A stretch of DNA of 64,000 nucleotides from Eledone cirrhosa. Taxonomy: Eukaryota. The position numbers were made by a program, and so were the translations under genes. Under the pieces are notes generated by a model that made no database searches, had not been told where the DNA came from, and saw nothing but the letters and a program-made list of their open reading frames with translations. Of this stretch, positions 7,502 to 35,470 are shown piece after piece (position 1 is the stretch's first letter; every line of letters starts with the position of its first letter). The stretch is from NCBI GenBank assembly GCA_964016885.1, contig OZ024744.1, positions 61,380,001-61,444,000 on the forward strand. The letters are read 5' to 3'.

Positions 7502-7561
<60 letters not shown>
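7502..7561 (+). repeat. (AAT)n microsatellite, about 20 units
   Basis: Read directly from the sequence. Confidence 0.97.
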
Positions 7562-7715
7562 TGTTTCTACTTTAGGCACAAGGCCAGCAATTACCCAGTG
7601 TATTACTGGTACTTTATTTTATCGACCCCGTAAGGATGAAAGGCAAAGTCAACCTCGGCGGGATTTGAACTCAGATCGTAAAGGGACGTAACTATGCTGG
7701 AAAGCATGGCGTCCA
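7561..7715 (-). mobile_element. SINE S1 copy lacking the tip of its head
   Basis: Matches 10391-10579. It is joined directly to the 5'-truncated Dong-like copy. Confidence 0.75.
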
Positions 7716-7718
7716 GAA

Positions 7719-10194
7719 GACAGAACTGCATGTTCGACAACAACCAGAAGATGCTGTTTGGAGACAGCTTGAAGGGAAAGAAATAGGCAACGACTTGATC
7801 CCTGAGGCGGAACAAACTAAAACATTCTGGAGAGGAATATGGGAGCAGGATATTAAACATAATGACCAGGCAGTGTGGATTGAGACAGTACAGAAGGAGA
7901 TCAGTGAACAGGCACACCAACAAACTGATTTGAGTATCACAGTTGAAACTCTTAAGGGGCAGGCCAAAAAACTAACCAACTGGAAATCACCTGGCCCAGA
8001 TGGTGTGCAGGGGTATTGGATTAAAAACATAACATCCCTCCACCCGAAACTGACAACCATGTTCAATGACTGCTTGATGTCAGGTGAGGTACCAGAGTGG
8101 TTGACAAAAGGTACCACAGTTCTGGTAATGAAAGACCGAATCAAGGGTAATGATGTTACCAACTATAGGCCTATCACATGTCTGTCCGTAATGTGGAAAC
8201 TGTTAACAAGCATTGTGTCTGAGGAAATCTACCATCACCTCCACATAAACAACTTGTTACCGGACGAACAGAAAGGATGCCGAAAGAAGTCACGTGGTAC
8301 AAAGGACCAGTTACTTATTGATAAGATGGTAATGAGGAATTGCAAGAGGAGGCACACTGGTCTTGCCATGGGATGGATAGACTACAAAAAGGCATTTGAC
8401 ATGGTGCCTCATTCTTGGATCACCAAAAGCCTGGAGATCTTCAGGGTGGCAGATAACATCAGACAGTTGTTGGTCAAAAGTATGAAGTCCTGGGAAACAG
8501 AGTTAACATCAACTGGAGAATCCTTGGGAAGCGTGAAGATCAAGAGAGGTATCTTCCAGGGAGATAGTCTGTCCCCTCTGTTGTTTGTCCTTGCCCTGAT
8601 GCCCCTGACCAGTGTACTGCGAAAAGTGAGAGCAGGATACAGGTTGGGAAAGGGAGGGCTTACCATCAAACACCTCCTCTTCATGGACGATCTTAAGCTC
8701 TTCGGGAAGAGTGAGAAGGAGTTGGATGTGCTTGTTGACACTGTCCGTATTTTCAGCAATGATATATGTATGCAATTTGGTATTAGTAAGTGTGGAGTCA
8801 TTGTGATGAGGAGGGGTAAGTTGAGCAGAAGTAACGGAATCCAGATACTAACAGGTGAGATGATAAAGGAAATTGACTCTGAGGAAGGATATAAGTATTT
8901 GGGCGTTCTGGAGGCTGATGAAATCAAGAACAAAAAATGAAGGAATTGATAAGAACTGAATACCTTTGGAGAGTAAGGAGCGTATTAAAGTCACATCTGA
9001 ACAGTAGAAATGCCATAAGTGCAGTAAATTCCCGAGCTGTGTCTATTATTAGGTACAGTACGGGAATTCTGAGATGGAATGTTGCTGAACAAAAAGAAAT
9101 GGATAGGAAGACTAGGAAGCTATTGACTATCTACAATATGTTCCACAAGAGGAGTGATGTCGATAGACTCTACTTAAGGAGATCTGAAGGTGGAAGAGGT
9201 CTTATCAGCATAGAGGACTGTGTTCAGATGGAGAAAAACAACCTACACAAATACGTGACTGATAGTAAGGAGCCAATGCTCAGAACTGTACTAAAGGAGG
9301 GGCCAATAGGCCAGGGGATGTCCAAGGAGGAAATAACATCAAGGAGAAAGAGCAGCCTTCAGGAAAAATCCCTTCATAGTACCTTCTTTGAGAAAACTGA
9401 ATTTAGAGATCCACAGACATGGAACTGGTTGAAAAGAGGAGACCTTAAAAAGGCTACAGAAGGAATGTTAATGGCTGCGCAGGAGCAGGCCCTCAAAACG
9501 AAGTGGTTGAAACACCACATTTACAAGGAGGAGGCTAGCCCACTGTGCAGGATCTGTGGAGAGAGAGAGGAGACTGTGGCTCACATTGTATCCGAGTGTA
9601 AACACCTAGCCCAGACTCACTATAAGGGCTGGAGACATGATGTGATGGGCAGGGTGATCCACTGGCACCTATGCAAAGTAAACAATTTACCACATTCTGA
9701 GAAGTGGTATGAGCATAAGCCAGAGGCGGTGATAGAAAACGATCAGGTGAAGGTGCTGTGGGATTTTAGGATACAGACGGACAAGAAACTGTAACACAAT
9801 AGACCTGACCTGGTGGTTTTGGACAAAGAAAAAAGATCGTGCCTGATTGTGGATGTGGCCTGCCCATTCGACACGAGAGTGCAAGAGAAGGAGAGGGAGA
9901 AAATTAACCGATACCAGGACTTAAAGTGGGAGGTAAAAAGGATTTGGAACTGCCATGAAGTCAAAGTGGTCCCGATTGTCATAGGCGCACTAGGGACTAT
10001 CTCAAAAAGTTTCCAGGGATGGTTAAAGAAAATTGGCCCCTTCACGCTTTTTGGAACGCTTCAAAAGGCATGCTTGCTGGGAACAGCAAGAACCCTCCGA
10101 TACGTCCTGAATATCTGAGGCTGCAGGTAGTGGCTTGATATTCATTTCAACAAACTTTCCAGTTAACTAAGATCAATGACTGAGACTCAAAGAG
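7719..10194 (+). mobile_element. R4/Dong-like RLE non-LTR retrotransposon, 5'-truncated copy 1
   Basis: RT motifs: WKSPGPDGVQGYWIK, NYRPITCL, IDYKKAFD, GIFQGDSLSP, LFMDDLKL. CCHC: CRICGEREETVAHIVSEC. RLE: PDLVV...DVACPFD...EK..KY. One frameshift near 8937 and one stop at 9792. The 3' end runs into (TAA)n. Confidence 0.9.
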
Positions 10195-10241: not shown

Positions 10242-10390
10242 TTTTTTTTTTAATTATAATCAATGTGCTGTATTAACTGGCTTACTAATGTACACTGAAT
10301 TTATTTGCCCTAGGTGTCAGGAAGACACTCGGCATATATCTCAGAAACAATAATGAAAGAAAAAAATAAAAATAATAATAATAATAATAA

Positions 10391-10579
10391 TTGTTTCTAC
10401 GTTAGGCACAAGGCCAGCAATTACCCAGTGTATTACTGGTACTTTATTTTATCGACCCCGTAAGGATGAAAGGCAAAGTTAACCTCGGCGGGATTTGAAC
10501 TCAGAATGGCAAGGGCCGTAACTCTATGCGTCAAAGCATGGCGTCCGACCCTCTACCAATACTGCCAATCCACCGCCAC
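10391..10579 (-). mobile_element. Full-length tRNA-derived SINE S1 with (ATT)n tail, embedded in (AAT)n
   Basis: The minus strand starts GTGGCGGTGGATTGGCAGTATTGGT (A box), contains GAGTTCAAATCC (B box) and ends TAGAAACAATTATT. (AAT)n lies on both sides. Confidence 0.8.
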
Positions 10580-10606
10580 AATAATAATAATAATAATAAT
10601 AATAAT

Positions 10607-13600
10607 ATCACGAGGGGGGGGGATGAAATCACCGGTGGTTATGTAACCATACATTCACCAATGCTCGATATGAGTGTTTAAATGTCGAACCTAAACAGTT
10701 CGAATAATGGTGAAAAGGAGACTGGAACATCATGTGACAGACTTTCACCCAGCAAGTGCTGCCTAGCCCACCAGCAGGGACCTGGCTGTCATCCAAATAC
10801 TGCTGGTGCTGGAGGAAGAAGAAGGAAAGGGACAAGAACCAACTGGACGAAAGAATTGAATAGAACTGTCATGAAATGTTACCTGAAGAGTAACCCCAAG
10901 GAGAAAGGCTATAGGAAACGGATGCATAACATCTGGAACGAGATTGGTCTATTTAAATTAGATGAACAAAAATTGGCTGGGCAGGCTCTAAGAACTAGTG
11001 GGTGGATAAGCGAGCTGGAACTGGAAAAACTGAGCAGAGAGATTAGGTTGGAAAGGGAGAGTGGAGTATGCCAGGCAAACGAGCCAGTGGGAAATGAAGG
11101 TGAAGAGGTTGAGAGACCTGAGGAAGCATCCGAAGCAGACAATGATCTGAATGCTGAAATAAATAACATCTGGAACAAAGATACGGCCATTGAGGAAATG
11201 AATGCTGACGGGCTAAGGCAAGATTTGGTTGATATCCTGAACTTAGTGGTAGATGAAATGAACAATGATAGTGGAAAACCTATGAACCTAAGATTTGTAG
11301 ACAGGAAAAAGTTAAAAGAAACAACAGCTAAGGTAAACAAAGTCATCCCATACCTTGAGGTGAGGAACCTTCACCAATGCAACAATATCCTCAAATGTGG
11401 TGAGGAAATTACTTGGTATAAAAACGAGAGGAAACAACAAACAAGAAAGATCAGAACCTTGGTGGAAGAAACGACTCAATGGTTAAATCAAGGAAATGAG
11501 AAAAGACATTGGAAAGCTTGAGTCCTTACTGAATGGGACATTACAAAACATAGACACTAAAGATAGATTGGAAATAAAGTACAAAACTAGGGGGAAAAAG
11601 CTAAATATTATCATAGAGGAACTGAAGCAACGCATTGTAGCAAAAAGTGCAAAGATTAGGCGGTATGAGAACAGAGTCAGTCAGTATAGACAGAAACGCA
11701 TGTTTGACAACAACCAGAAGATGCTGTTTGGACAGCTTGAAGGGAAAGAAAGAGGCAACGACTTGATCCCTGAGGCGGAACAGACTAAGACATTCTGGAG
11801 AGGAATATGGGAGCAGGATGTTGATCATAATAGTCAGGCAGTGTGGATTGAGACAGTTAAAAAGGAGATTAGTGAACAAGCACACCAACAACCTGATTTG
11901 AGTATCACTGTTGAAACTCTCAAGGGGCAGGCCAAAAAACTAAGAAGCTGGAAATCACCAGGCCCAGATGGTGTGCAAGGGTATTGGATTAAAAATATAA
12001 CATCCCTTCATCCGAAACTGACAACCATGTTCAATGAATGCTTGATGTCGGGTGAGGTACCAGAGTGGTTGACAAAAGGTACCACAGTTCTGGTAATGAA
12101 AGACCGAATCAAGGGTAATGATGTTACCAACTATAGGCCTATCACATGTCTGTCCGTAATGTGGAAACTGTTAACAAGCATTGTGTCTGAGGAAATCTAC
12201 CATCACCTCCACATAAACAACTTGTTACCGGACGAACAGAAAGGATGCCGAAAGAAGTCCCATGGTACAAAAGACCAGTTACTTATTGATAAGATGGTAA
12301 TGAGGAATTGCAAGAGGAGGCACACTGGTCTCGCCATGGCATGGATAGATTACAAAAAGGCATTCGACATGGTACCTTATTCTTGGATAACCAAAAGCCT
12401 AGAGATCTTCAAGGTGGCAGATAACATCAGACAGTTGTTTAGCAAAAGTATGAAGTCCTGGGAAACAGTTAACATCGGGTGGAGAATCCTTGGGAGGTGT
12501 GAAGATCAAGTGAGGTATCTTCCAGGGAGATAGTTTGTCCCCTCTGCTGTTTTTCCTTGCCCTGATACCCCTGACCGTTATATTGCGAAAAGTGAGAGCA
12601 GGATACAAGTTGGGAAAGGGAGAGCTTACCAGCAACCACCTCCTCTTCATGGACGATCTTAAACTCTTTGGGAAGAGTGAGGAGTTGGATTTACTTGTTG
12701 ACACTGTCCGTATTTTCAGCAATGATATATGTATACAATTTGGTATTAGTAAGTGCGGAGTCCTTGTGATGAAGAGGGATAAATTGAGCAGAAGCAACGT
12801 AATCCAGGTACCAACAGGTGAGATGATAAAGGAAATTGACACTGAAGAAGGATACAAATATTTAGGTGTTCTGGAGGCAGATGACATCAAGAACAAAAAT
12901 TATGAAGGAATTGATAAGATCTGAATACATAAGGAGAGTAAGGAACATATCAAAATCATATCTAAATAGTAGGAATGTCATACGTGCAGTGAATTCCCGA
13001 GCTGTGTCTATTATTAGGTACAGTACGGGAATTCTGAAATGGAATGTTGCTGAACAAAAAGAAATGGATAGGGAGACTAGGAAGCTAATGACTATCTACA
13101 ACATGTTCCACAAGAGGAGTGATGTCGATAGGCTCTACTTAAGGAGATCAGAAGGTGGAAGAGGTCTTATCAGCATAGAGGACTGTGTTCAGATGGAGAA
13201 AAACAACCTGCACAAATACGTGACTGACAGTAGGGAGCCAATGCTCAAAATTGTACTGAAGGAGAAGACAATAGACCAGGGGATGTCCAAGGGGGGAAAT
13301 AACAACAAGGAGGAAGAGCAACCTTCATGAAAAATCCCTTCATAGTACCTTCTTTAAGAAAACTGAATTTAGAGATCCATAGACATGGAACTGGTTGAAA
13401 AGGGGAGACCTTAAAAAAGCTACAGAAGGAACACTGATGGCTGTGCAAGAGCAAGCCCTCAGAACGAAGTGGGTGAAACACCATATTTACAAGGAGGAGG
13501 CTAGCTCACTGTGTAGTATCTGTGGAGAGAAAGAGGAGACTGTGGCTCACATTGTATCCGAGTGTAAACACCTAGCTCAGATTCACTATAAAAGCTGGAG

Positions 13601-14722
13601 ACATGATGTGATAGGCAGGGTGATCCACTGGCACCTATGCAAAGTAAACAATTTACCACATTCTGAGAAGTGGTATGAGCATAAGCCAGAGTCGGTGATA
13701 GAAAACGATCAGGTGAAGGTGCTATGGGATTTTAGGATACAGACGGACAAGAAATTAGAACACAATAGACCTGACCTGGTGGTTTTGGACAAGGAAAAAA
13801 GATCGTGCCTGATTGTAGATGAAGCTTGCCCATTTGACACGAGAGTGCAAGAAAAGGAGAGGGAGAAAATTAATCGATACCAGGATTTAAAGTGGGAGTT
13901 AAAAAAAGATTTGGAACTGCCATGAAGTCAAGGTCGTCCCGATTGTCATAGGCGCACTAGGAACTATCTCAAACGAACTAAGGAAAAAATTAGAAATAAG
14001 AGGGATCAGATGTTGTTTACTCGAGAGAAGGCTACATTGGTATGGTCACGTGATGCGCATGAAAGACGACAGCTGTATAACAAAGTGCAGGGCAATAAAG
14101 ATAGATGGTAGCCACAGAGTAGGCAGACCCAGGAAAACCTGGGACGAGCTGATAAATTCCGACCTCACACACTTACACCTCTCCTAGACAATGTCACTGA
14201 ACCGAGACCTTTGGCGGTACTCAGTAACAGAGAAGACCCACCTTACCTAAATACAAAGTAAAACCTACAAGTCAGTAGGCATCTCTAACAAAATACACCC
14301 CCGTCCCACCCCATCCACACCGCCCCCTTCAATGCAAAGTTATGTTGGTGCCACAACATCCAGGCCGAAACAAACGAGATCGTGTAGGTGTCACGACAAA
14401 AAAACACACAGTCCACGCTGTAAATGTGGCCGTGTAGGCAACACGGTAAAAACCTCCCAGTCCCACACTGTAAATGTGGTTGGTGTTAGGAAGGGCATCC
14501 AGCTGTAGAAAACACGCCAGACAGTCCACGCTGTAATGTGGCCGTGTAGGCAACACAGTAAAAACCTCCCAGCCCCACACTGTAAATGTGGTTGGTGTTA
14601 GGAAGGGCATCCAGCTGTAGAAAACCCGCCAGACAGTCCTATGCGAGCAAGACAAACACTCTTGCCTCAAGTGGGAAAACCCTCGTCCAAACCCATGCAA
14701 GCGTGGAACAGGGACGTTAAAC

Positions 14723-14762
<40 letters not shown>

Positions 14763-14933
14763 AAAGAAGATTAGTCCAGCCCCGATTTTTGGAACACTTC
14801 AAAAAGCATGCTTGCTGGGAACAGCAAGAACCCTCCGATACGTCCTGAATATCTGAGGCTGCAGGTAGGGGCTTGATATTCATTTCAACAAACTTTCCAG
14901 TTAAATAACATCAATGACTGAGACTCAAAGAAC
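10607..14933 (+). mobile_element. R4/Dong-like RLE non-LTR retrotransposon, apparently full-length copy 2, frameshifted and interrupted
   Basis: Starts immediately after (AAT)n. The N-terminus has WTKELNRTVMKCY...GYRKRMHNIW. RT, CCHC and RLE motifs match copy 1. It is interrupted at 13974-14761, then resumes with LQKACLLGTARTLRYVLNI* and the same 3' UTR, ending in (AAT)3. Confidence 0.9.
13974..14761 (+). mobile_element. 5'-truncated RTE-clade LINE nested in Dong-like copy 2
   Basis: Reads ELRKKLEIRGI...RRLHWYGHVMRM...GRPRKTW, which is an RTE C-terminus. The 3' UTR has tandem subrepeats and a (GAT)13 tail. Confidence 0.85.
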
Positions 14934-16304
14934 AATAATAATAATCACTTTCTTAATAGCACATATTTTTCATAAGATTTTAAAGTTGGAGATTATGATT
15001 CTGCTGATAAAATAAAAACAAATTTTTTTTAGTATTTCTATTATTGCATACTTCCATTCATTAATGCTTTCATTATTGTATACTTTTTTTTCATCTGTGT
15101 TTGTAATTAAGTTATATGAAAACAGACATTTTTTCATCATGCCATCTAATTTCAAGTTGATAATGAATGATATCAATCAGGATAATGTCATAGATTTTAT
15201 ACAAAATGTAATATTATTATCATTTCAACAACTAGGAATAGTGTAAAAAATATTTTCATTGAGATAATTGCAATCAACATTTTTACAAAATATGTATCCA
15301 CAAAACAATACATTATTAATAAAGTTGTGAGAAAATAAAATCAGGTGGGAGGACACTAATCTGTAATTATGCTAATTTTAACAAACAAAAAATACAGTGG
15401 GCCATAACTATAATTATTTAGTGTAGTAGAGACTAATAGAAATAACACAAGATTTCTTTCTTGCATAATTTTCAATGCATTTCTATATTAAAATTATCTG
15501 AATGACCTCCTTATAATAGAATCAGCACAAGTAAATTTAAAAGTAAAAAAAATATGACTTTTTTTTAATAAATACTCACTCCATTGACATCTCTAAAAAC
15601 ACTTTTATGCTTTCTACATAAAGATGTAAATTGGATATGTTGCATAAAACCAATCAATCTGTTCATACTACCTTATTTGAAACAAATGCATGCCTACTTT
15701 AGTTTTCAGTCGATGAGTAGGTCAGCATGGTTTGATATTCTTCTGCTCGAGTGATTTTTATTTTACCATTATGGCTAAATTCATATTTATTTTATCCTCA
15801 GCTAAGTGTCTTTTGATAATAATCTTATGATAATCTGTCACTGGTAGAAAATTTAGAAAAGAGTACATTGCATAAATGCATTGTAGATGTTAATATTGGT
15901 CTAAGTTGTTACTGCTGCTTGTGTTAGCTATGACAAGCAAGGAAAGATCAAAGACATCAGGCAAACTTTTATGAGTCTGACCTACTTCATTAAATTTTGT
16001 TGTCATATAAACAGTATTATGAACATATAACATTATTTAACTAACATTTTAAGTTACAGTCATAACAAGGTTATGTTTGTACCGAATTACAACCAATTGA
16101 AACTTTAAATATTATTTACAAGCAGAAATGCATAAAACCGAGTTATGTTAGGGTGTACAAAAGGTTTTGCTGAGCTCATATAATTGAGCCCAAGCCTTAT
16201 TATGAACAATGAAATTTTTTTTTTATTTTCCATTCCTTAAGCAAAAATTTGTTAGCCCAAATTGAATTATGAGTCCAGCCTGTGTGGCACAAGTGGTGGA
16301 TTCA

Positions 16305-21888: not shown

Positions 21889-22517
21889 TAGGTATAATGG
21901 TAAAGAAGCAATGGTGAGAGAGAGGTAGAGCAATAATGGGTACTGTTGAAGGTATTGGAAACAGGTTGAACGCCATCCTTTGTAAATACAGTGTGGTATT
22001 CTAGTGAAAATTATAGAATGTGGTTGATAAAAGGGTTGTGAATGTAACAGTAGAGGGAGACTTGATGGAGGTGTAGTGAAGGAAAGACTCTGATGGTGTA
22101 TAATAAATACATCACAACACCACTGACACATCCTGCCACCTCACCACCACAAACCACTACTATCCTTGGTTATTGTCTTTGTGAGGTTCTGCTTCTTGAG
22201 GTCAGTTTTCCTCATTCTCTAAGTTTTCTACAGATTCAGCTATAAGAATTAGGCCATCAATATACAGAATTTCCCATGGATAGCTGGTCTTTAAAGCATG
22301 TATTTGCACATACATACATACATACATACATGGTAGCTGCCAACTCGTTTTCGAGTACGGCCACTATTTTATATCCATGTAGGAGAACTCCTACCGATGC
22401 GCTGAACGAGTGTGACTTTTTAGTTCAGCCAGCAACTTGAAAACTCTGGTACATACATACATACATACATACATACATACATACATACATACACATATAC
22501 ATACATACATACATACA

Positions 22518-23953
22518 TTTGCTGTGCCTGTCCTAACACCAACGTTTGGAATACTCAATTGGACAATAGACGAAATCCGAGCAGTTGATGTTGGAACTCG
22601 AAAAATACTGAACAACACCGGAAACTTCCACATCAACAGTGACATAGACCGCCTTTACTTGAAACTTAAACAGGGAGGCAGAGGCCTAACATCAGTCCAG
22701 ACAACATTTGAATGTCGCATCATATCTCTCCGACAACATCTACGAACCTTGAAGCGTAGGAGCACGCTTCTCGAGCAAGTCTATCTGCATGAAACAGATA
22801 AGATCATGAGAGTTGGGGAGGAACTCCTTGAGAGATATTCCCTGTGTGATAATCAAAAACTCACACCCAGGGATGTCACTCAGCAGTATCGCAGTGAATC
22901 CATGGATAAAAAACTGCATGCCTATCAGGAAAAAATCATGCATGGATATGTTGCCAGGAAGCTCCAGAGTGAGAGTAATATAGATAAGGAAAGTATTCTA
23001 TCTTGGACCAACAACTGCTATATTGGCTCCCACTTTGAAGGATACGCTTTTGCAATCCAAGAACAGGAGATTAGCACGAAATACCTGATTCACAAAAGAG
23101 ATAGGGATGCAGGCAAAACACCTAGATGTGATAACAAGTGCAGACTCTGCAGAACTAACATCGAGGATATCACCCATGTCATCAGCAGCTGCCCAAAGAT
23201 GTCATCGCGGTACTATCTACCTATGAGGCATGATGTAGTGGCCAAAACACTGTACAATGCAGTTCGTAAAAAAGATAGCCCCGATAATAAAGACATTAAA
23301 AGCTACAGCAATGTGGAAGACATCCATGTACATAATACAAAAGAGTACTGGTGGAATGTTCTAGTAAAAACCCCAATAAAATACAAGCATAACAGGCCAG
23401 ATATTATGATATGGGACAGAGAGAAGAAAGCATGCACAGTAGTGGAAATTAGCTGCCCAGCAGATGCCAATATAATATCAAAGATTAGTGAAAAGGAGAA
23501 TATTTATGCAGAACTGATGAGAAATCTGCAGATACTCCACCCTTATTACACCTTCAGATTTATGCCTGTGATTATTGGGGCACTGGGGTATGTTAGTAAC
23601 TGCCTCAATACAAATCTTGAGAAGCTAGGCTTCACAGGAACAGAAAGAACACAACTAGTTAGGAAACTACAAGTACAATCCATTAATGGAACAGTAAAAA
23701 TATGTAAAACATTCCAAACATTTTGCATCTAATAACTGCATATACACATGTACAGATACAAAGCATATACACATGCACACATACAACTCAAAACATACAC
23801 ATCCACACATACAATAACATCCATATCTACACATGCATGCATACATATCTACCTAGTTGATGTGTAAATTCCAATGAGAGAGTCTTGTGTCTATGTTAGA
23901 AACCGACTCTCTCTCTATTGGTAAAACTTTGTGAAATTATAAAACCAGAAGAA
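22518..23953 (+). mobile_element. RLE retrotransposon family A (R4-like), 5'-truncated unit 1
   Basis: DRLYL..KQGGRGL, CRLC..NIEDITHVISSC, RHD, RPDIMI...VEISCP, KENIY. The frame is open to 23732 and (ACAT)n flanks both sides. Confidence 0.88.
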
Positions 23954-23977
23954 CATACATACATACATACATACATA

Positions 23978-24182
23978 CCAAAGTATGACTGAACTTGGAT
24001 TTGTGGACAAAAAGCGCAGCTCCCTAATTCATAGTCTACAAATGGCTGCGATAGCTGGCACCTTCAAAATTTGCAAAACATTCTTGCGATTCAAGGGATG
24101 ACAATTTCTTTTCTTTTACAACCTTGCCACCAGGAAGGTGGCCGGTCAAAAAAAATATACTCTAAATTAAGAGAAAGAGATA
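23978..24182 (+). mobile_element. 3' fragment of a second RLE family, B (repeated at about 26162, 28362 and 31027)
   Basis: Encodes ELGFVDKKRSSLIHSLQMAAIAGTFKICKTFLRFKG*, homologous to the family A end GTVKICKTF. It has a distinct 3' UTR ending in (ACAT)n. Confidence 0.75.
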
Positions 24183-24237
24183 ACATACATACATACATAC
24201 ATACATACATACATACATACATACATACATACATACA

Positions 24238-24514
24238 TAGTGGCTGCCAATTCGTTTTCGAGTACAGCCACTACTTTATATCCATGTAGGAGAACCCCTA
24301 CCGATGCGCTGAACGAGTGTGACTTTTTAGTCCAGCCTGCGACTTGAAAACTCTGGTACAAACACTACACTTGTGACAATTACTGACACATAGTGCTGGG
24401 CCCATGGTACCATGTGACGACAAGTGCAGAGAGATCTCCAGATATAAAGCAATGCCTGTGCCGTGAAGCTTTTATAGTGAGCAAAGGCACTAAATTTCTT
24501 TTCTTTTACAACCT
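24238..24514 (+). other. Module C: ~277-bp hairpin-rich non-coding segment between (ACAT)n tracts (also at about 22331, 26434, 28650, 29099 and 31246)
   Basis: Contains several stem-loops. Its last 22 nt are identical to the start of the family B 3' UTR (24103-24124). Confidence 0.6.
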
Positions 24515-24531
24515 ACATACATACATACATA

Positions 24532-26137
24532 CTTCACCAATATCTGATGAGGACTGCTACAGATACCTGGGGATAGATGAGAACATATCCTATAATGGTA
24601 TCTGTAATAAAGAACGCGTAACCAGGGAATACTACACCCGATTAAGAAAGATCTGGTCATCGGAACTCTCTGCGCAAAACAAAACAGTGGCTCACAATGT
24701 GTTTGCTGTGCCTGTCCTAACACCAACGTTTGGAATACTCAATTGGACAATAGACGAAATCCGAGCAGTTGATGTTGGAACTCGAAAAATACTGAACAAC
24801 ACCGGAAACTTCCACATCAACAGTGACATAGACCGCCTTTACTTGAAACGTAAGCAGGGAGGCAGAGGCCTAACATCAGTCCAGACAACATTTGAATGTC
24901 GCATCATATCTCTCCGACAACATCTACGAACCTCGAAGCGTAGGAGCCCGCTTCTCGAGCAAGTCTATCTGCATGAAACAGATAAGATCATGAGAGTTGG
25001 GAAGGAACTCCTTGAGAGATATTCCCTGTGTGATAATCAAAAACTCACACCCAGGGATGTCACTCAGCAGTATCGCAGTGAATCCATGGATGAAAAACTG
25101 CATGCCTATCAGGAAAAAATCATGCATGGATATGTTGCCAGGAAGCTCCAGAGTGAGAGTAATATAGATAAGGAAAGTATTCTATCTTGGACCAACAACT
25201 GCTATATTGGCTCCCACTTTGAAGGATACGCTTTTGCAATCCAAGAACAGGAGATTAGCACGAAATACCTGATTCACAAAAGAGATAGGGATGCAGGCAA
25301 AACACCTAGATGTGATAACAAGTGCAGACTCTGCAGAACTAACATCGAGGATATCACCCATGTCATCAGCAGCTGCCCAAAGATGTCATCGCGGTACTAT
25401 CTACCTATGAGGCATGATGTAGTGGCCAAAACACTGTACAATGCAGTTCGTAAAAAAGATAGCCCCGATAATAAAGACATTAAAAGCTACAGCAATGTGG
25501 AAGACATCCATGTACATAATACGAAAGAGTACTGGTGGAATGTTCTAGTAAAAACCCCAATAAAATACAAGCATAACAGGCCAGATATTATGATATGGGA
25601 CAGAGAGAAGAAAGCATGCACAGTAGTGGAAATTAGCTGCCCAGCAGATGCCAATATAATATCAAAGATTAGTGAAAAGGAGAATATTTATGCAGAACTG
25701 ATGAGAAATCTGCAGATACTCCACCCTTATTACACCTTCAGATTTATGCCTGTGATTATTGGGGCACTGGGGTATGTTAGTAACTGCCTCAATACAAATC
25801 TTGAGAAGCTAGGCTTCACAGGAACAGAAAGAACACAACTAGTTAGGAAACTACAAGTACAATCCATTAATGGAACAGTAAAAATATGTAAAACATTCCA
25901 AACATTTTGCATCTAATAACTGCATATACACATGTACAGATACAAAGCATATACACATGCACACATACAACTCAAAACATACACATCCACACATACAATA
26001 ACATCCATATCTACACATGCATGCATACATATCTACCTAGTTGATGTGTAAATTCCAATGAGAGAGTCTTGTGTCTATGTTAGAAACCGACTCTCTCTCT
26101 ATTGGTAAAACTTTGTGAAATTATAAAACCAGAAGAA
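24532..26137 (+). mobile_element. RLE family A, unit 2 (open frame to 25916)
   Basis: Begins at YRYLGIDE (end of RT), followed by thumb, CCHC and RLE. Confidence 0.88.
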
Positions 26138-26731
26138 CATACATACATACATACATACATACCAAAGTATGACTGAACTTGGATTTGTGGACAAAAAGCG
26201 CAGCTCCCTAATTCATAGTCTACAAATGGCTGCGATAGCTGGCACCTTCAAAATTTGCAAAACATTCTTGCGATTCAAGGGATGACAATTTCTTTTCTTT
26301 TACAACCTTGCCACCAGGAAGGTGGCCGGTCAAAAAAAATATACTCTAAATTAAGAGAAAGAGATAACATACATACATACATACATACATACATACATAC
26401 ATACATACATACATACATACATACATACATACATAGTGGCTGCCAATTCGTTTTCGAGTACAGCCACTACTTTATATCCATGTAGGAGAACCCCTACCGA
26501 TGCGCTGAACGAGTGTGACTTTTTAGTCCAGCCTGCGACTTGAAAACTCTGGTACAAACACTACACTTGTGACAATTACTGACACATAGTGCTGGGCCCA
26601 TGGTACCATGTGACGACAAGTGCAGAGAGATCTCCAGATATAAAGCAATGCCTGTGCTGTGAAGCTTTTATAGTGAGCAAAGGCACTAAATTTCTTTTCT
26701 TTTACAACCTACATACATACATACATACATA

Positions 26732-28337
26732 CTTCACCGATATCTGATGAGGACTGCTACAGATACCTGGGGATAGATGAGAACATATCCTATAATGGTA
26801 TCTGTAATAAAGAACGCGTAACCAGGGAATACTACACCCGATTAAGAAAGATCTGGTCATCGGAACTCTCTGCGCAAAACAAAACAGTGGTTCACAATGT
26901 GTTTGCTGTGCCTGTCCTAACACCAACGTTTGGAATACTCAATTGGACAATAGACGAAATCCGAGCAGTTGATGTTGGAACTCGAAAAATACTGAACAAC
27001 ACCGGAAACTTCCACATCAACAGTGACATAGACCGCCTTTACTTGAAACGTAAGCAGGGAGGCAGAGGCCTAACATCAGTCCAGACAACATTTGAATGTC
27101 GCATCATATCTCTCCGACAACATCTACGAACCTCGAAGCGTAGGAGCCCGCTTCTCGAGCAAGTCTATCTGCATGAAACAGATAAGATCATGAGAGTTGG
27201 GAAGGAACTCCTTGAGAGATATTCCCTGTGTGATAATCAAAAACTCACACCCAGGGATGTCATTCAGCAGTATCGCAGTGAATCCATGGATGAAAAACTG
27301 GATGCCTATCAGGAAAAAATCATGCATGGATATGTTGCCAGGAAGCTCCAGAGTGAGAGTAATATAGATAAGGAAAGTATTCTATCTTGGACCAACAACT
27401 GCTATATTGGCTCCCACTTTGAAGGATATGCTTTTGCAATCCAAGAACAGGAGATTAGCACGAAATACCTGATTCACAAAAGAGATAGGGATGCAGGCAA
27501 AACACCTAGATGTGATAACAAGTGCAGACTCTGCAGAACTAACATCGAGGATATCACCCATGTCATCAGCAGCTGCCCAAAGATGTCATCGCGGTACTAT
27601 CTACCTATGAGGCATGATGTAGTGGCCAAAACACTGTACAATGCAGTTCGTAAAAAAGATAGCCCCGATAATATAGACATTAAAAGCTACAGCAATGTGG
27701 AAGACATCCATGTACATAATACGAAAGAGTACTGGTGGAATGTTCTAGTAAAAACCCCAATAAAATACAAGCATAACAGGCCAGATATTATGATATGGGA
27801 CAGAGAGAAGAAAGCATGCACAGTAGTGGAAATTAGCTGCCCAGCAGATGCCAATATAATATCAAAGATTAGTGAAAAGGAGAATATTTATGCAGAACTG
27901 ATGAGAAATCTGCAGATACTCCACCCTTATTACACCTTCAGATTTATGCCTGTGATTATTGGGGCACTGGGGTATGTTAGTAACTGCCTCAATACAAATC
28001 TTGAGAAGCTAGGCTTCACAGGAACAGAAAGAACACAACTAGTTAGGAAACTACAAGTACAATCCATTAATGGAACAGTAAAAATATGTAAAACATTCCA
28101 AACATTTTGCATCTAATAACTGCATATACACATGTACAGATACAAAGCATATACACATGCACACATACAACTCAAAACATACACATCCACACATACAATA
28201 ACATCCATATCTACACATGCATGCATACATATCTACCTAGTTGATGTGTAAATTCCAATGAGAGAGTCTTGTGTCTATGTTAGAAACCGACTCTCTCTCT
28301 ATTGGTAAAACTTTGTGAAATTATAAAACCAGAAGAA
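26732..28337 (+). mobile_element. RLE family A, unit 3 (open frame to 28116)
   Basis: Near-identical to unit 2. Confidence 0.88.
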
Positions 28338-29396
28338 CATACATACATACATACATACATACCAAAGTATGACTGAACTTGGATTTGTGGACAAAAAGCG
28401 CAGCTCCCTAATTCATAGTCTACAAATGGCTGCGATAGCTGGCACCTTCAAAATTTGCAAAACATTCTTGCGATTCAAGGGATGACAATTTCTTTTCTTT
28501 TACAACCTTGCCACCAGGAAGGTGGCCGGTCAAAAAAAATATACTCTAAATTAAGAGAAAGAGATAACATACATACATACATACATACATACATACATAC
28601 ATACATACATACATACATACATACATACATACATACATACATACATACATAGTGGCTGCCAATTCGTTTTCGAGTACAGCCACTACTTTATATCCATGTA
28701 GGAGAACCCCTACCGATGCGCTGAACGAGTGTGACTTTTTAGTCCAGCCTGCGACTTGAAAACTCTGGTACAAACACTACACTTGTGACAATTACTGACA
28801 CATAGTGCTGGGCCCATGGTACCATGTGACGACAAGTGCAGAGAGATCTCCAGATATAAAGCAATGCCTGTGCCGTGAAGCTTTTATAGTGAGCAAAGGC
28901 ACTAAATTTCTTTTCTTTTACAACCTACATACATACATACATACATACTTCACCGATATCTGATGAGGACTGCTACAGATACCTGGGGATAGATGAGAAC
29001 ATATCCTATAATGGTATCTGTAATAAAGAACGCGTACATACATACATACATACATACATACATACATACATACATACATACATACATACATACATACATA
29101 GTGGCTGCCAATTCGTTTTCGAGTACAGCCACTACTTTATATCCATGTAGGAGAACCCCTACCGATGCGCTGAACGAGTGTGACTTTTTAGTCCAGCCTG
29201 CGACTTGAAAACTCTGGTACAAACACTACACTTGTGACAATTACTGACACATAGTGCTGGGCCCATGGTACCATGTGACGACAAGTGCAGAGAGATCTCC
29301 AGATATAAAGCAATGCCTGTGCCGTGAAGCTTTTATAGTGAGCAAAGGCACTAAATTTCTTTTCTTTTACAACCTACATACATACATACATACATA

Positions 29397-31002
29397 CTTC
29401 ACCGATATCTGATGAGGACTGCTACAGATACCTGGGGATAGATGAGAACATATCCTATAATGGTATCTGTAATAAAGAACGCGTAACCAGGGAATACTAC
29501 ACCCGATTAAGAAAGATCTGGTCATCGGAACTCTCTGCGCAAAACAAAACAGTGGCTCACAATGTGTTTGCTGTGCCTGTCCTAACACCAACGTTTGGAA
29601 TACTCAATTGGACAATAGACGAAATCCGAGCAGTTGATGTTGGAACTCGAAAAATACTGAACAACACCGGAAACTTCCACATCAACAGTGACATAGACCG
29701 CCTTTACTTGAAACGTAAGCAGGGAGGCAGAGGCCTAACATCAGTCCAGACAACATTTGAATGTCGCATCATATCTCTCCGACAACATCTACGAACCTCG
29801 AAGCGTAGGAGCCCGCTTCTCGAGCAAGTCTATCTGCATGAAACAGATAAGATCATGAGAGTTGGGAAGGAACTCCTTGAGAGATATTCCCTGTGTGATA
29901 ATCAAAAACTCACACCCAGGGATGTCATTCAGCAGTATCGCAGTGAATCCATGGATGAAAAACTGCATGCCTATCAGGAAAAAATCATGCATGGATATGT
30001 TGCCAGGAAGCTCCAGAGTGAGAGTAATATAGATAAGGAAAGTATTCTATCTTGGACCAACAACTGCTATATTGGCTCCCACTTTGAAGGATACGCTTTT
30101 GCAATCCAAGAACAGGAGATTAGCACGAAATACCTGATTCACAAAAGAGATAGGGATGCAGGCAAAACACCTAGATGTGATAACAAGTGCAGACTCTGCA
30201 GAACTAACATCGAGGATATCACCCATGTCATCAGCAGCTGCCCAAAGATGTCATCGCGGTACTATCTACCTATGAGGCATGATGTAGTGGCCAAAACACT
30301 GTACAATGCAGTTCGTAAAAAAGATAGCCCCGATAATAAAGACATTAAAAGCTACAGCAATGTGGAAGACATCCATGTACATAATACGAAAGAGTACTGG
30401 TGGAATGTTCTAGTAAAAACCCCAATAAAATACAAGCATAACAGGCCAGATATTATGATATGGGACAGAGAGAAGAAAGCATGCACAGTAGTGGAAATTA
30501 GCTGCCCAGCAGATGCCAATATAATATCAAAGATTAGTGAAAAGGAGAATATTTATGCAGAACTGATGAGAAATCTGCAGATACTCCACCCTTATTACAC
30601 CTTCAGATTTATGCCTGTGATTATTGGGGCACTGGGGTATGTTAGTAACTGCCTCAATACAAATCTTGAGAAGCTAGGCTTCACAGGAACAGAAAGAACA
30701 CAACTAGTTAGGAAACTACAAGTACAATCCATTAATGGAACAGTAAAAATATGTAAAACATTCCAAACATTTTGCATCTAATAACTGCATATACACATGT
30801 ACAGATACAAAGCATATACACATGCACACATACAACTCAAAACATACACATCCACACATACAATAACATCCATATCTACACATGCATGCATACATATCTA
30901 CCTAGTTGATGTGTAAATTCCAATGAGAGAGTCTTGTGTCTATGTTAGAAACCGACTCTCTCTCTATTGGTAAAACTTTGTGAAATTATAAAACCAGAAG
31001 AA
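29397..31002 (+). mobile_element. RLE family A, unit 4 (open frame to 30781)
   Basis: Near-identical to unit 2. Confidence 0.88.
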
Positions 31003-31539
31003 CATACATACATACATACATACATACCAAAGTATGACTGAACTTGGATTTGTGGACAAAAAGCGCAGCTCCCTAATTCATAGTCTACAAATGGCTGCGA
31101 TAGCTGGCACCTTCAAAATTTGCAAAACATTCTTGCGATTCAAGGGATGACAATTTCTTTTCTTTTACAACCTTGCCACCAGGAAGGTGGCCGGTCAAAA
31201 AAATATACTCGAAATTAAGAGAAAGAGAAAACATACATACATACATGGTGGCTGCCAACTCGTTTTCGAGTACAGCCACTACTTTATATCCATGTAGGAG
31301 AACCCCTACCGATGCGCTGAACGAGTGTGACTTTTTAGTCCAGCCTGCGACTTGAAAACTCTGGTACAAACACTACACTTGTGACAATTACTGACACATA
31401 GTGCTGGGCCCATGGTACCATGTGACGACAAGTGCAGAGAGATCTCCAGATATAAAGCAATGCCTGTGCCGTGAAGCTTTTATAGTGAGCAAAGGCACTA
31501 AATTTCTTTTCTTTTACAACCTACATACATACATACATA

Positions 31540-33160
31540 CTTCACCGATATCTGATGAGGACTGCTACAGATACCTGGGGATAGATGAGAACATATCCTA
31601 TAATGGTATCTGTAATAAAGAACGCGTAACCAGGGAATACTACACCCGATTAAGAAAGATCTGGTCATCGGAACTCTCTGCGCAAAAAAAAACAGTGGCT
31701 CACAATGTGTTTGCTGTGCCTGTCCTAACACCAACGTTTGGAATACTCAATTGGACAATAGACGAAATCCGAGCAGTTGATGTTGGAACTCGAAAAATAC
31801 TGAACAACACCGGAAACTTCCACATCAACAGTGACATAGACCGCCTTTACTTGAAACGTAAGCAGGGAGGCAGAGGCCTAACATCAGTCCAGACAACATT
31901 TGAATGTCGCATCATATCTCTCCGACAACATCTACGAACCTCGAAGCGTAGGAGCCCGCTTCTCGAGCAAGTCTATCTGCATGAAACAGATAAGATCATG
32001 AGAGTTGGGAAGGAACTCCTTGAGAGATATTCCCTGTGTGATAATCAAAAACTCACACCCAGGGATGTCACTCAGCAGTATCGCAGTGAATCCATGGATG
32101 AAAAACTGCATGCCTATCAGGAAAAAATCATGCATGGATATGTTGCCAGGAAGCTCCAGAGTGAGAGTAATATAGATAAGGAAAGTAGTCTATCTTGGAC
32201 CAACAACTGCTATATTGGCTCCCACTTTGAAGGATACGTTTTTGCAATCCAAGAACAGGAGATTAGCACGAAATACCTGATTCACAAAAGAGATAGGGAT
32301 GCAGGCAAAACACCTAGATGTGATAACAAGTGCAGACTCTGCAGAACTAACATCGAGGATATCACCCATGTCATCAGCAGCTGCCCAAAGATGTCATCGC
32401 GGTACTATCTACCTATGAGGCATGATGTAGTGGCCAAAACACTGTACAATGCAGTTCGTAAAAAAGATAGCCCTGATAATAAACACATTAAAAGCTACAA
32501 CAATGTGGAAGACATCCATGTACATAATATGAAAGAGTACTGGTGGAATGTTCCAGTAAAAACCCCAATAAAATGCAGGCATAACAGACCAGATATTATG
32601 ATATGGGACAGAGAGAAGAAAACATGCACAGTAGTGGAAATTAGCTGCCCAGCAGATGCCAATATAATATCAAAGATTAGTGAAAAGGAGAATATTTATG
32701 CAGAACTGATGAGAAATCTGCAGATACTCCACCCTGATTACACCTTCAGATTTATGCCTGTGATTATTGGGGCACTGGGGTATGTTAGTAACTGCCTCAA
32801 TACAAATCTTGAGAAGCTAGGCTTCACAGGAACAGAAAGAACACAACTAGTTAGGAAATTACAAGTACAATCAATTAATGGAACAGTAAAAAATATGTAA
32901 AACATTCCAAAAATTTTGCATCTAATAACTGCATATACACATGTACAGATAAAAAGCATATACACATGCACACATACAACTCAAAACATACACATCCACA
33001 CATACAATAACATCCATATCTACATATGCATGCATGCAGACATACATACATATCTACCTAGTTGATGTTGTGTAAATTCCAATGAGAGAGTCTTGTGTCT
33101 ATGTTAGAAACCGACTCTCTCTCTATTGGTAAAACTTTGTGAAATTATAAAACCAGAAGA
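31540..33160 (+). mobile_element. RLE family A, unit 5 (diverged 3' half, terminal frameshift)
   Basis: ORF 31401-32900. Its 3' variants are shared with the copy at 61.5-64 kb. Confidence 0.88.
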
Positions 33161-33264
33161 ACATACATACATACATACATACATACATACATACATACAT
33201 ACATACATACATACATACATACATACATACATACATACATACATACATACATACATACATACAT
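33161..33264 (+). repeat. (ACAT)n microsatellite, about 26 units
   Basis: Read directly from the sequence. Confidence 0.97.
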
Positions 33265-34472
33265 AGGATGTTGTAGAGATTAGCTGCCCACTTGAAGTAA
33301 ACGTTGTAAGAAAAATACAAGTGAAGGAGGACATCTACGGACTTTAGCAGAAAATATATATAATGTATAATAGATATATCAACACGAATAATAATAATGT
33401 TTCTACTTTTGGCACAAGGCCAGCAATTACCCAGTGCATTACTGGTACTTTGTTTTATCGACCTCTGTAAAGTTAACCTCGGCGGGATTTGAACTCAGAT
33501 CGAAAAGGGGCGTAACTATATCCGACCCTCTACCGATACTGCCAATTCACGAATAATAATAATTGTTTCTACTTTAGGCACAAGGCCAGCAATTACCCAG
33601 TACATTACCGGTACTTTATTTTATCGACCCCGTAAGGATGAAAGGCAAAGTTAACCTCGGTGGGATTTGAACTCAGACTGTAAAGGGACGTAACTATGCT
33701 AGAAAACATGGCGTCCAACCCTCTACCGATACTGCCAATAATAATAATGATGTGTATTTGTTGTAACAGGAAAGGTGTGGTTTTGTTAAACGTGAGATTA
33801 GTGAATGTTTGTGGAATTAGTTGTAATGTCTCCGTTTTACATGTTTTATTTACAGCTAACTACAAAGAGTTAAGTTGAGTTGACATGTCAAAGTAAAGAA
33901 CAAACATAATTAATAATTAAGAAGTGAATGTGGCATTGTGCCAGGCCAAAAGCGGCCGACAGGCCAAAGTGAAAGTCTCACCGTTACATTATTGTGTATT
34001 GACCTTTCAGAGTCCAAGCAGCAAGAGAAAGATTTATGAATCTCTGCGGGAATTTTTCCCTCTGGGGCGGAAGTCGAGATACATTCGCCTACGCTGTCGA
34101 TTGACTGAACTGAGCCAAACAACGCACAGAGAATGTATCCATCAGCCCTCAGAATGTAGGTCACTACAGGACCATTGATGAGGAGTTTGCAGATCCAGTA
34201 TCCAATACACCTTCAACTTCATACCCATCATTGTTGGAGCTACAGGTTATATTCCAACCTGCTTGGAAGTATAACTGAACTTGGATTTGTGGACAAAGAG
34301 TGCAGCTCCCTAATTCATAGACTACAAATGGCTGCAATAGGTGGCACCTTCAAAATTTGCAAAACATTCTTGCAATTCAAGGGATGACAATTTCTTTTCT
34401 TTTACAACCTTGCCACCAGGAAGGTGGCCGGTCAAAAATGTACTCGAAATTAAGAGAATGAGAAACATAGAT
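33265..34472 (+). mobile_element. Longer RLE family B fragment split by an ~820-bp insertion
   Basis: VVEISCPLEVNVVRKIQVKEDIYG at 33268-33341 resumes at about 34169 as GPLMRSLQIQYP..FIPIIVGATGY..GTFKICKTFLQFKG*. It ends in ACATAGATACATACATAC. Confidence 0.75.
33398..33738 (-). mobile_element. Two tandem SINE S1 copies separated and flanked by (AAT)n
   Basis: 33398-33550 and 33563-33738 both match 10391-10579. Confidence 0.75.
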
Positions 34473-35470
34473 ACATACATACATACTTGGTTTTTTTTTT
34501 GGTTTTTTTTGCAAGATTATTGATGTGAAATCATGTATAAAATCAAATCATGTATAAAATCAAATATTGTTATACTAGGGTCATGCTGCCAATAAAAACA
34601 CACAAACACACCAGTTGAGTTTCACTTCAGTTTATTGTTGGTTAAGTAACTATAACAAGTTTTCTTGTTTGTTTGCTGCTGAGGAAAAGATTACTTATAC
34701 TTTTCGTTGTAGACAAAATCCATGTGGAATGTTGTAGAAAAAATGTAGAAAAAATCCATGTGGAATGTTGTTAGAGGAATTTTTTCTTTTTGAAATACTG
34801 CTAATTAATTTTCTTTTTTTCATATTCACACAACACCAGATCCTATTATTTTTTTCTCGGGGTCACCAATTATAACAGGACACTGGGTTGTATGTACAAT
34901 GTTTATTTAACAAGGTTGAGCTATGTAGAGCAGAATAGTTGACATGCCAAGAGAGATGAAAGGATGAATTAAAGTTAGTTGTTTACCGTTTTGAAGTCAG
35001 CACACAAGAGACCAAGAGGTCTTTACATTACCATGTTCAGGTTGCCAGAGAGTATAGCCTCGGCAGGTTAAAAGAGAGGGAGATAGCTTTCAGCTCTCTC
35101 ATTTTATAGTACCCTGGACGGAAGTTCCTAAGAAGGTTCTGCCACCCCAACGGGAAGTAACTCCAGCTACTTCCTGTCTAGAGAACGCTACTGGTGATGT
35201 GATCGTCATAACAAGGGAGGCAACTCTTGCTACATAACTAATCAATTGATGGAGTAAATAGAACAAGATCAGAATAAAGAGGAGACACAGAGGAGCAAGA
35301 ATAGTCATTGAGAGCTTTGATAATTAAATATGACAATTAAACAACCATCCAGTTACTAAACTAACCAATGAATTGATTAGGTTCTTAACTAACAATAAAC
35401 CGAAGTGAATCTCATTGGTGTGTGTGTTTTTATTGGCAACATGACCCTCCCAAAATATAATATATATATA

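What the first reader, a model, noticed from the sequence alone, without database searches (positions are those of the whole stretch)
22308..34487. Two RLE retrotransposon families apparently targeting (ACAT)n microsatellites
Seen: every copy of family A (five in the array plus a diverged copy at 61558-63982) and every copy of family B has (ACAT)n at both the 3' end and the variably truncated 5' end. A tail alone would not explain repeats at the 5' junctions. Established: R4-clade Dong targets (TAA)n, and ACAY targeting is known for Waldo, which uses an APE endonuclease (R1 clade). Inference: an RLE lineage has converged on ACAT and piles up at its own tails. I do not recall such a lineage being described but cannot check. 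The array units are duplicates, so there are only about three to five independent junctions here.
Basis: partly seen in the sequence, partly recalled or inferred. Interest (0 to 1): 0.75.

Follow-up and report, generated by a model that had tools for sequence, protein, structure and literature searches.

The report
Retrotransposons homing to ACAT microsatellites
Two related families of jumping genes, with thousands of copies in this animal genome (likely an octopod), have ACAT repeats at both ends in about three of four sampled copies while a co-resident relative has TAA instead, so they likely insert into ACAT repeats on purpose, which would be a new target for a known kind of site-specific element.

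Summary
Confirmed and extended genome-wide. Families A (4.12 kb) and B (4.22 kb, one intact 1,174-aa ORF found) are single-ORF RLE retrotransposons with R4/Dong architecture: Myb-like N-terminus, RT, CCHC finger, RLE. ACAT repeat lies at the 5' junction in 39 of 52 position-sampled 5'-truncated copies and 56 of 60 full-length 5' ends, against 0.5% background. A co-resident Dong-like family has TAA at 12 of 18 junctions and ACAT at none. The two flanks of a copy share rare repeat variants, which suggests one older array split by insertion. The window array derives from two separate A insertions multiplied by unequal crossover, giving five independent A/B junctions. Only 25 of 120 flanks lead to another A/B copy, so 'own tails' is partial. 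Untested: empty sites, cleavage, a tree with named Dong/R4, Repbase/Dfam. Ten paper searches found no ACAT-targeting RLE. This scan noted the same pattern on other DNA of this genome (e1-10329220). New target variant of a known kind.

The parts
22308..22331 (+). (ACAT)6, left edge of the nest; likely the 3' tail/target of the C copy to its right
22332..22450 (-). element C, truncated copy (about the first 120-130 nt from its fixed end), 94.7% to consensus
22451..22518 (+). (ACAT)17 with two variant units; 5' junction of A1
22518..23952 (+). family A copy A1, 5'-truncated at consensus 2682 of 4123; independent insertion
23977..24180 (+). family B, 5'-truncated 204-bp copy between (ACAT)6 and (ACAT)14; duplicated at 26161-26364, 28361-28564, 31026-31228
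24240..24491 (-). element C, 253-nt piece; duplicated at 26436, 28652, 29101, 31247
24493..24514 (+). 22-bp piece of the B 3'UTR fused to C without ACAT on its 5' side (the exception); duplicated four times
24533..26136 (+). family A copy A2 (consensus 2513-4123); 5' part like A5, 3' part like A1
26733..28336 (+). family A copy A3, same chimeric pattern
28586..29485 (+). local 449-bp tandem duplication holding an 88-bp A fragment (28949-29036) and an extra C piece
29398..31001 (+). family A copy A4, same chimeric pattern
31541..33160 (+). family A copy A5 (consensus 2513-4123, 98.7%); second independent insertion; followed by (ACAT)26 at 33161-33264
33269..34463 (+). family B copy from consensus 3851, interrupted by 821 bp (33343-34163) of other repeats; tail (ACAT)3 at 34473-34484
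61560..63982 (+). older family A copy (consensus 1683-4123, 87.7%), RT to RLE with many stops; imperfect ACAT 5', short ACAT 3'
7718..10194 (+). family D, Dong-like RLE element with (TAA)n tail; used as internal control, not part of the ACAT system
10606..14945 (+). family D, near full-length copy starting after (AAT)9, interrupted at about 13974-14755; internal control

Best explanation
A and B are two single-ORF retrotransposon families with a reverse transcriptase and a restriction-like endonuclease that have ACAT repeats at both ends across the genome, and they likely insert into pre-existing (ACAT)n microsatellites, their protein likely recognising and nicking the repeat and priming reverse transcription there. 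Shown: architecture, copy numbers, ACAT at full-length and truncated 5' junctions, one fixed orientation relative to the repeat, and TAA instead of ACAT for the co-resident family D. Inferred by analogy to R2 and Dong: the RLE nicks the ATGT strand; the freed 3' end primes cDNA synthesis on the element RNA, helped by pairing with the RNA's ACAT tail; the Myb-like N-terminal domain and the RLE set the sequence choice; a few untemplated bases are added at the 5' joint. Because the array is split, repeat remains on both sides, so each insertion leaves two landing sites and nests grow. The antisense element C uses and supplies the same repeats. The window's tandem array arose later by unequal crossover between two A insertions (A1, A5).
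For: 5'-truncated copies taken in chromosome order: A 18 of 27, B 21 of 25 with ACAT at the junction; 1 of 60 with the reverse repeat, 0 of 60 with TAA. Full-length 5' ends: A 27 of 30, B 29 of 30. Genome-wide, 248 of 326 minus-strand A 5' ends have an exact ACATACAT within 10 nt. Background 70 of 14,657. Family D: TAA at 12 of 18 evaluable 5' junctions, ACAT at 0 of 18; Fisher p 9e-9 for A/B versus D at ACAT. ACAT is the dominant unit at 58 of 60 full-length 5' flanks, although (AT)n runs were more frequent than ACAT runs in the control DNA (18 versus 8). Up- and downstream flanks of one copy share variant 10-mers: 192 observed, shuffled mean 65, maximum 146 in 2,000 shuffles, 91 copies. None of 19 rows of split host elements held an A, B or C copy. 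Protein: RT FVDD, CCHC, RHD, PD..E..K motifs intact in A and B and conserved in 39 relatives; best sequence and Foldseek matches are R2 proteins; N-terminal three-helix domain matches Myb/SANT structures at Z 5-6. Run-derived contigs also join ACAT to further truncation points of A and B (table 5c). Dong targets TAA and carries a Myb-like domain (PMC7998251 passages).
Against: No empty orthologous site was seen, so that the repeat came first is inferred, not shown. 13 of 52 truncated junctions fail the score: five have an ACAT array a little further upstream, one has the reverse repeat, seven have at most 7 nt of it. Some sampled copies are duplicates of each other (L315/L316, L318/L321, L330/L331). 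The number of copy pairs sharing any variant is only modestly raised (24 versus 16.5, p 0.012), and those 91 copies came from mixed, partly selected loci. Element C, which shows no RLE, also has ACAT or AT repeats at both ends, so two-sided repeats do not need this endonuclease. No cleavage data. The Myb match is of middling Z and had no Pfam support.
Confidence: 0.68

Rival explanations
1. Insertion is into pre-existing ACAT arrays, but the choice is made by the RNA: the element's (ACAU)n tail pairs with repeat DNA opened by a weakly specific RLE, by another element's endonuclease or by spontaneous breaks. The protein has no real ACAT specificity.
For: Predicts the same fixed orientation and two-sided repeats. 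Element C shows both without any RLE of its own. A review states that some R2 proteins can be redirected by homology arms on the template RNA (PMC13586686 passage). Family D's tail is TAA, so the A/B versus D contrast fits too.
Against: A and B sit in ACAT at 58 of 60 full-length 5' flanks, whereas C's fixed end sits in (AT)n in 16 of 30 and ACAT in 12 of 30, so A/B are stricter than a tail-bearing neighbour. Most RLE clades are described as target-specific (PMC4640811 passage). Both families keep a Myb-like domain.
Confidence: 0.2
2. The 5' ACAT is made during integration: the RT jumps from the end of a truncated template to the tail of another RNA, or slips on the tail, and so adds ACAT at sites that had none.
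For: Head-to-tail A/B neighbours occur at 25 of 120 flanks, all in the same orientation. End-to-end template jumping is known for R2 RT (recalled, not checked here). Short filler pieces occur at some 5' joints.
Against: It predicts A/B copies inside other elements at ACAT-free sites; 0 of 19 split-host rows held one, while 16 held a roughly 180-bp SINE-like repeat. It does not predict shared rare variants in both flanks. About half of the flanks lead into unrelated sequence after arrays of tens to hundreds of bases.
Confidence: 0.07
3. No targeting: copies insert broadly and survive, or are trimmed back by deletion, in ACAT-rich regions; the window pattern is a by-product of tandem duplication.
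For: The window array is indeed duplicated. Copies cluster, and internal deletions are common.
Against: Copies at 98-99.5% identity to consensus show the pattern. The repeat abuts the junction in one orientation only. Family D in the same chromosome region shows TAA and never ACAT.
Confidence: 0.05

Closest known systems
Dong, DongAg, DongBg and ostracod Dong (R4 clade, RLE)
   Same: Single ORF with Myb/SANT-like N-terminus without zinc fingers, RT, CCHC, RLE; insertion into a microsatellite with repeat on both sides (PMC7998251, PMC3812793 passages).
   Different: Target is the tetranucleotide ACAT, not TAA. A and B are only 32-34% identical to the co-resident TAA-flanked family D and fall in a separate RT branch. 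No HDV-like ribozyme was found at their 5' ends, unlike silkworm Dong (inconclusive).
Waldo (WaldoAg1, WaldoAg2, WaldoFs1; R1 clade)
   Same: ACAY microsatellite target (PMC3812793 passage).
   Different: Waldo is APE-type; A and B have a C-terminal RLE and no APE domain. Same target, unrelated nuclease.
Octopus 'Dong-R4' LINE families
   Same: Five recently active Dong-R4 families with 1,129 insertions over 4.73 Mb (mean about 4.2 kb, my division) are catalogued in O. vulgaris (PMC13282606); a full-ORF Dong is noted in O. bimaculoides (PMC9115989). A and B may be relatives of these.
   Different: The passages read give no target sequence for them ('target' occurs 0 times in PMC13282606). Their sequences could not be compared.
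Togen (TG)n and microsatellite-specific HERO families (RLE)
   Same: RLE elements with microsatellite targets other than TAA exist (PMC4640811 passages).
   Different: Different targets; placed near NeSL/HERO, not with Dong. Not compared by sequence.
R2 (R2Tg, R2Bm; solved structures)
   Same: Best sequence and Foldseek matches over RT to RLE; source of the inferred mechanism.
   Different: 18-20% identity; R2 targets 28S rDNA and has N-terminal zinc fingers.

Membership tests
RLE-type non-LTR retrotransposon (R2 group) | Single ORF with non-LTR RT followed by CCHC finger and PD-(D/E)xK restriction-like endonuclease | tested here: met
   Intact 1,174-aa ORF in L142:2334-5855; RVT_1 E 7e-25; CCHC at 985-1002, RHD 1014, PD 1064, E 1080, K 1096; profile matches R2 proteins over positions 377-1145, E 2e-54.
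RLE-type non-LTR retrotransposon (R2 group) | Fixed 3' end, variable 5' truncation, no LTRs | tested here: met
   52 of 60 copies sampled by 3' end are 5'-truncated at scattered positions.
R4/Dong clade | N-terminal Myb/SANT-like domain and no N-terminal zinc fingers | tested here: met
   Three-helix domain, pLDDT 87; top structural matches Sap1, Zeste, TRF1, NgTRF, GT-1, TRF2, ISWI at Z 5.1-5.9, rmsd 2.6-3.9, 57-66 aligned (middling Z); aligns with the N-terminus of family D. Feature as described in PMC7998251.
R4/Dong clade | RT phylogeny groups it with named Dong, R4 and Rex6 to the exclusion of R2, NeSL, HERO, CRE | tested here: inconclusive
   No named reference sequences were returned. 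A tree of 69 RT regions puts A and B in one branch (0.98) apart from D, but it lacks named references and an outgroup, and its two halves came from searches seeded on A and on D. A/B are 37% identical to D-type RTs and about 19% to R2 over the whole protein.
Dong proper | (TAA)n target | tested here: not met
   TAA at 0 of 60 5' junctions of A/B; family D has it at 12 of 18.
Dong proper | HDV-like self-cleaving ribozyme at the 5' junction | tested here: inconclusive
   Rfam scan of window 22000-25000 gave only repeat-driven hits and did not include an A or B 5' end; a home-made topology scan of the A and B 5' ends gave no canonical match. The scan was not validated on a known ribozyme.
Target-specific non-LTR retrotransposon | Same repeat at 3' junctions and at 5' junctions of truncated copies, in fixed orientation | tested here: met
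Target-specific non-LTR retrotransposon | Empty sites carry the target | tested here: inconclusive
   No empty allele among the joints shown; paralogue search gave only other repeat-bridged neighbours.
Target-specific non-LTR retrotransposon | Endonuclease cuts the target in vitro | not testable with these tools
   Needs a bench assay.
Waldo (R1 clade) | APE endonuclease before RT, two ORFs | tested here: not met
   Single ORF, no APE domain, RLE motifs present.
RTE-derived non-autonomous element (for C) | Shared 3' end with an autonomous RTE LINE | not tested
   No partner was found in the fetched loci. C keeps a CxxC-x12-H-x4-H remnant ending in a stop near its fixed end; the likeness of this and of its other end to RTE elements is recalled, from no call.

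The most novel reading that the evidence does not exclude
A and B represent an old, separate sub-lineage of the R4/Dong clade (46% identical to each other, 32-34% to the TAA family; a 67%-identical RT region in Argonauta) whose Myb-like domain and RLE have switched from a trinucleotide to the tetranucleotide ACAT, converging on Waldo's target with an unrelated nuclease. Together with an antisense short element that seeds the same repeat on the other strand, they form a self-feeding guild. One genome then carries TAA- and ACAT-specific RLEs side by side, at least the ACAT one with an intact ORF: a natural domain-swap experiment on how RLE elements read microsatellites.
Probability: 0.5. Interest if true: 0.62.

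Novelty: new variant of a known kind. Interest (0 to 1): 0.47.

Why it matters
How RLE retrotransposons change targets is an open question that matters for R2-based gene insertion tools; reviews ask for more elements with distinct specificities (PMC13586686 passage). Dong-type elements are described as TAA-specific in insects, molluscs and cnidarians (PMC7998251). Here two young families with hundreds of full-length 5' ends and an intact ORF use ACAT next to a TAA-using relative, so protein-versus-RNA control of targeting can be tested directly by swapping the Myb domain, the RLE or the RNA tail. It also explains how ACAT-rich repeat nests and tandem arrays arise in this genome. The kind of system, a microsatellite-specific non-LTR element, is well known, which limits the surprise.

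Tried and rejected
Empty sites: runs X18-X20 match the unique flank of L058 with no differences, so they are not independent of the assembly; no joint skipping the element was among those shown (15 shown, 280 not). X1 holds family A at about 98-99% but not the unique flank beyond L058:9076. RAD-seq run X21 did not cover the flank at window 21984-22325. A paralogue search rebuilt 164 empty sites; 42 had a spanning match, all other repeat-bridged neighbours, overlapping loci or the copy itself, so none was counted. Named references for the tree: none returned; the ESM Atlas gave no result. Xiong and Eickbush 1993 and Biedler 2015 were not held. Rfam: only repeat-driven miRNA and snoRNA hits below threshold. 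HDV-like ribozyme scan: nothing canonical for A, B, C or D. Pfam found no Myb family in the N-termini. My first idea that C is the 5' end of B was dropped: C is a separate 606-bp element and B's 5' end is different. My notebook doubt that the last B copy lacks a 5' ACAT was wrong; it starts at 33269 after (ACAT)26. A 3'-end pattern for family D matched only 4 places and was replaced. The plus-strand count is inflated by overlapping matches and was not used. The phase of ACAT at truncated 5' joints is spread over all four phases, so no cut site could be read. The VIA re-alignment ranked LINE-1 ORF2p and R2 about equally and was not used for classification. The pooled tally (ACAT-like run upstream in 48 of 73 A and 57 of 78 B truncated copies) did not chain interrupted copies and was superseded.
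Full report
Setting. The window is G000:C28:61,380,001-61,444,000 of a 3.0-Gb animal genome. The host is likely an octopod: the only named protein among the 120 closest listed relatives of family A is from Argonauta hians, and it is 67% identical to family B in the RT region.

Observation in the window. The ACAT runs are present as described. I built consensus sequences from genomic copies (A from 7 full-length copies; B from 8; C from 14) and mapped them to the window. It holds five 3'-complete A copies, one 88-bp A fragment, four 204-bp B copies, one interrupted B copy starting right after (ACAT)26, and an older A copy at 61560-63982. All have ACAT at the 5' junction. One exception is a 22-bp B 3'UTR piece fused to element C, repeated five times. 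Diagnostic positions show that A2-A4 match A5 in the 5' part and A1 from consensus 3160 onward. So the array comes from two independent A insertions, multiplied by unequal crossover, and the window has five independent A/B junctions.

What A and B are. A is 4,123 bp with a reading frame of about 1,230 aa; none of the 7 full-length copies checked is intact. B is 4,223 bp, and 1 of 8 full-length copies has an intact 1,174-aa ORF. They are 46% identical. Both carry RT (FVDD), a CCHC finger, RHD and PD..E..K motifs, conserved in an alignment of 39 relatives. R2 proteins are the best matches by sequence and by Foldseek on a model of mean pLDDT 84. The N-terminal 70 residues fold as three helices whose best structural matches are Myb/SANT-type DNA-binding domains at Z 5-6, a middling score; no zinc finger precedes RT. 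This is the architecture described for R4/Dong (PMC7998251, passages). Exact end motifs occur 483 (A 5'), 2,361 (A 3'), 312 (B 5') and 3,900 (B 3') times; these are lower bounds.

Junction test. I took the first 30 matches in chromosome order for each end motif. The score asks for at least 14 of 16 nt matching periodic ACAT within 8 nt of the junction. Full-length 5' ends: A 27 of 30, B 29 of 30. Copies sampled by their 3' end, after fetching the full upstream DNA and chaining interrupted pieces: truncated A 18 of 27, truncated B 21 of 25, full-length 8 of 8; TAA at 0 of 60 and the reverse repeat at 1 of 60. Of the 13 misses, five have an ACAT array slightly further upstream, one the reverse repeat, and seven at most 7 nt. 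Three pairs in the sample are duplicates of each other. Genome-wide, 248 of 326 minus-strand A 5' ends have an exact ACATACAT within 10 nt. Background is 70 of 14,657 positions in control loci and window flanks. Truncated copies are the decisive class, because neither a tail nor a co-transcribed leader explains them.

Controls. The window also carries a Dong-like family D with TAA flanks (8,064 motif matches). In 30 sampled copies, 18 had the 5' junction inside the locus: 12 at TAA, 0 at ACAT; 12 ran beyond the fetched DNA and were not scored. In 91 A/B copies with repeat on both sides, the two flanks share variant 10-mers far more than shuffled pairs (192 versus mean 65, maximum 146 of 2,000), though the number of sharing pairs is only modestly raised (24 versus 16.5). 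This favours one older array split or duplicated by the insertion. Among 19 rows in which an A, B or D copy is split with colinear ends, none contains A, B or C, and 16 contain a roughly 180-bp SINE-like repeat. No empty allele was obtained.

The third element. C is 606 bp, non-coding apart from a zinc-finger-like remnant ending in a stop, with at least 22,971 copies. One end is constant and the other is variably truncated (16 of 30 sampled; the sample was chosen by the constant end; the rows visible agree). Read as a retroelement, it lies antisense to A and B with an (ATGT)n or (AT)n tail. Its specificity is looser: (AT)n dominates at 16 of 30 constant ends and ACAT at 12; the other end scores for ACAT in 16 of 30. 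Its likeness to RTE elements is recalled, not tested. Beyond the ACAT array at 120 A/B flanks lie A or B in 25 cases (all same orientation), C in 32 (all antisense) and other DNA in 63.

Mechanism. Best reading (0.68): the A/B protein recognises and nicks (ACAT)n and primes reverse transcription there, aided by the RNA tail; repeat is left on both sides, so nests grow. Insertion into pre-existing arrays by either protein or RNA-tail guidance is about 0.88 together. The genomic data cannot separate the two well; C shows that two-sided repeats do not need this nuclease.

Relationships. A FastTree of 69 RT regions, thinned from 209, places A and B in a branch of 19 sequences (support 0.98) and D in another with proteins named from Euphydryas and Penaeus. 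The two halves come from searches seeded on A and on D, and there are no named Dong, R4, Rex6, HERO or NeSL sequences and no outgroup. The tree shows that A/B are not a recent offshoot of D; it does not prove clade membership.

Literature. Seen as passages: PMC4640811, PMC9115989, PMC3774820, PMC7998251, PMC3124438, PMC3812793, PMC3636483, PMC8967140, PMC13586686, PMC13580325. PMC13282606: first third of the text and passages. They give TAA for Dong, ACAY for Waldo, (TG)n for Togen, and list octopus Dong-R4 families without targets. Ten searches found no ACAT-targeting RLE element. Not seen: Kojima and Fujiwara 2003 and 2004, Fell et al. 2025 and its supplements, the supplement of PMC13282606, Repbase and Dfam; any of these could hold the family. 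An earlier unreviewed note of this scan reports the same three families on other DNA of this genome; I had reached the reading before seeing it, and it is not independent support.

Verdict. A real, genome-wide pattern; a new target variant of a known kind of element; interest 0.47.

Noticed in passing
window 7718-10194 and 10606-14945 (+): Family D: Dong-like RLE elements with (TAA)n at the 3' end and at the 5' end of the near full-length copy; at least 8,064 motif matches genome-wide. Canonical TAA targeting beside the ACAT families.
   Followed up: yes
window 46607-48070 and 50852-52315 (-): Two near-identical 5'-truncated L1/Tx1-like RT copies (487-aa frame) embedded in a 26-bp satellite array (44993-55449), joined to the satellite at both ends; possible satellite-targeted element or one insertion duplicated with the array.
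   Followed up: no
window about 2020-7300 (-): Decayed two-ORF L1/Tx1-like element (zinc-knuckle ORF1 remnant, RT) ending in a (TTC)n tail; 74% similar to the satellite-embedded copies. TTC is the target given for Koshi elements in PMC3812793.
   Followed up: no
window 1-136, 7514-7717, 10346-10574, 33353-33739; many loci: A roughly 180-bp SINE-like repeat next to (AAT)n; it is the usual intruder into A and B bodies (16 of 19 split-host rows), often with short overlaps that look like target duplications at AAT-like sites.
   Followed up: partly
window 22332-22450 and 24240-24491; L247-L276: Element C ends in a stem-loop whose outer pairs differ by compensating changes in a related element seen in L035, L064 and L077; further diverged C-like families (about 70% identity) occur in many loci.
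   Followed up: partly
L152 (G000:C14:37844200-37850700): Tandem repeats of a roughly 115-bp piece from the start of the A reading frame separated by ACAT arrays, with a B copy among them; unexplained.
   Followed up: no
L098-L127: Full-length A 5' joints often carry recurring short additions or duplications of the element's first four bases between the ACAT array and the element, suggesting slippage or untemplated addition at the 5' joint.
   Followed up: no
L202 (G000:C1:20784182-20787207): The one B copy of 60 sampled whose 5' flank is the reverse repeat (ATGT)n while its tail is ACAT; possible inversion or insertion at an ATGT/ACAT boundary.
   Followed up: no
run X1 on L058: A run labelled with another organism code holds family A along most of its length at about 98-99% identity and low depth, without the unique flank; may be a close species sharing the family.
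   Followed up: no
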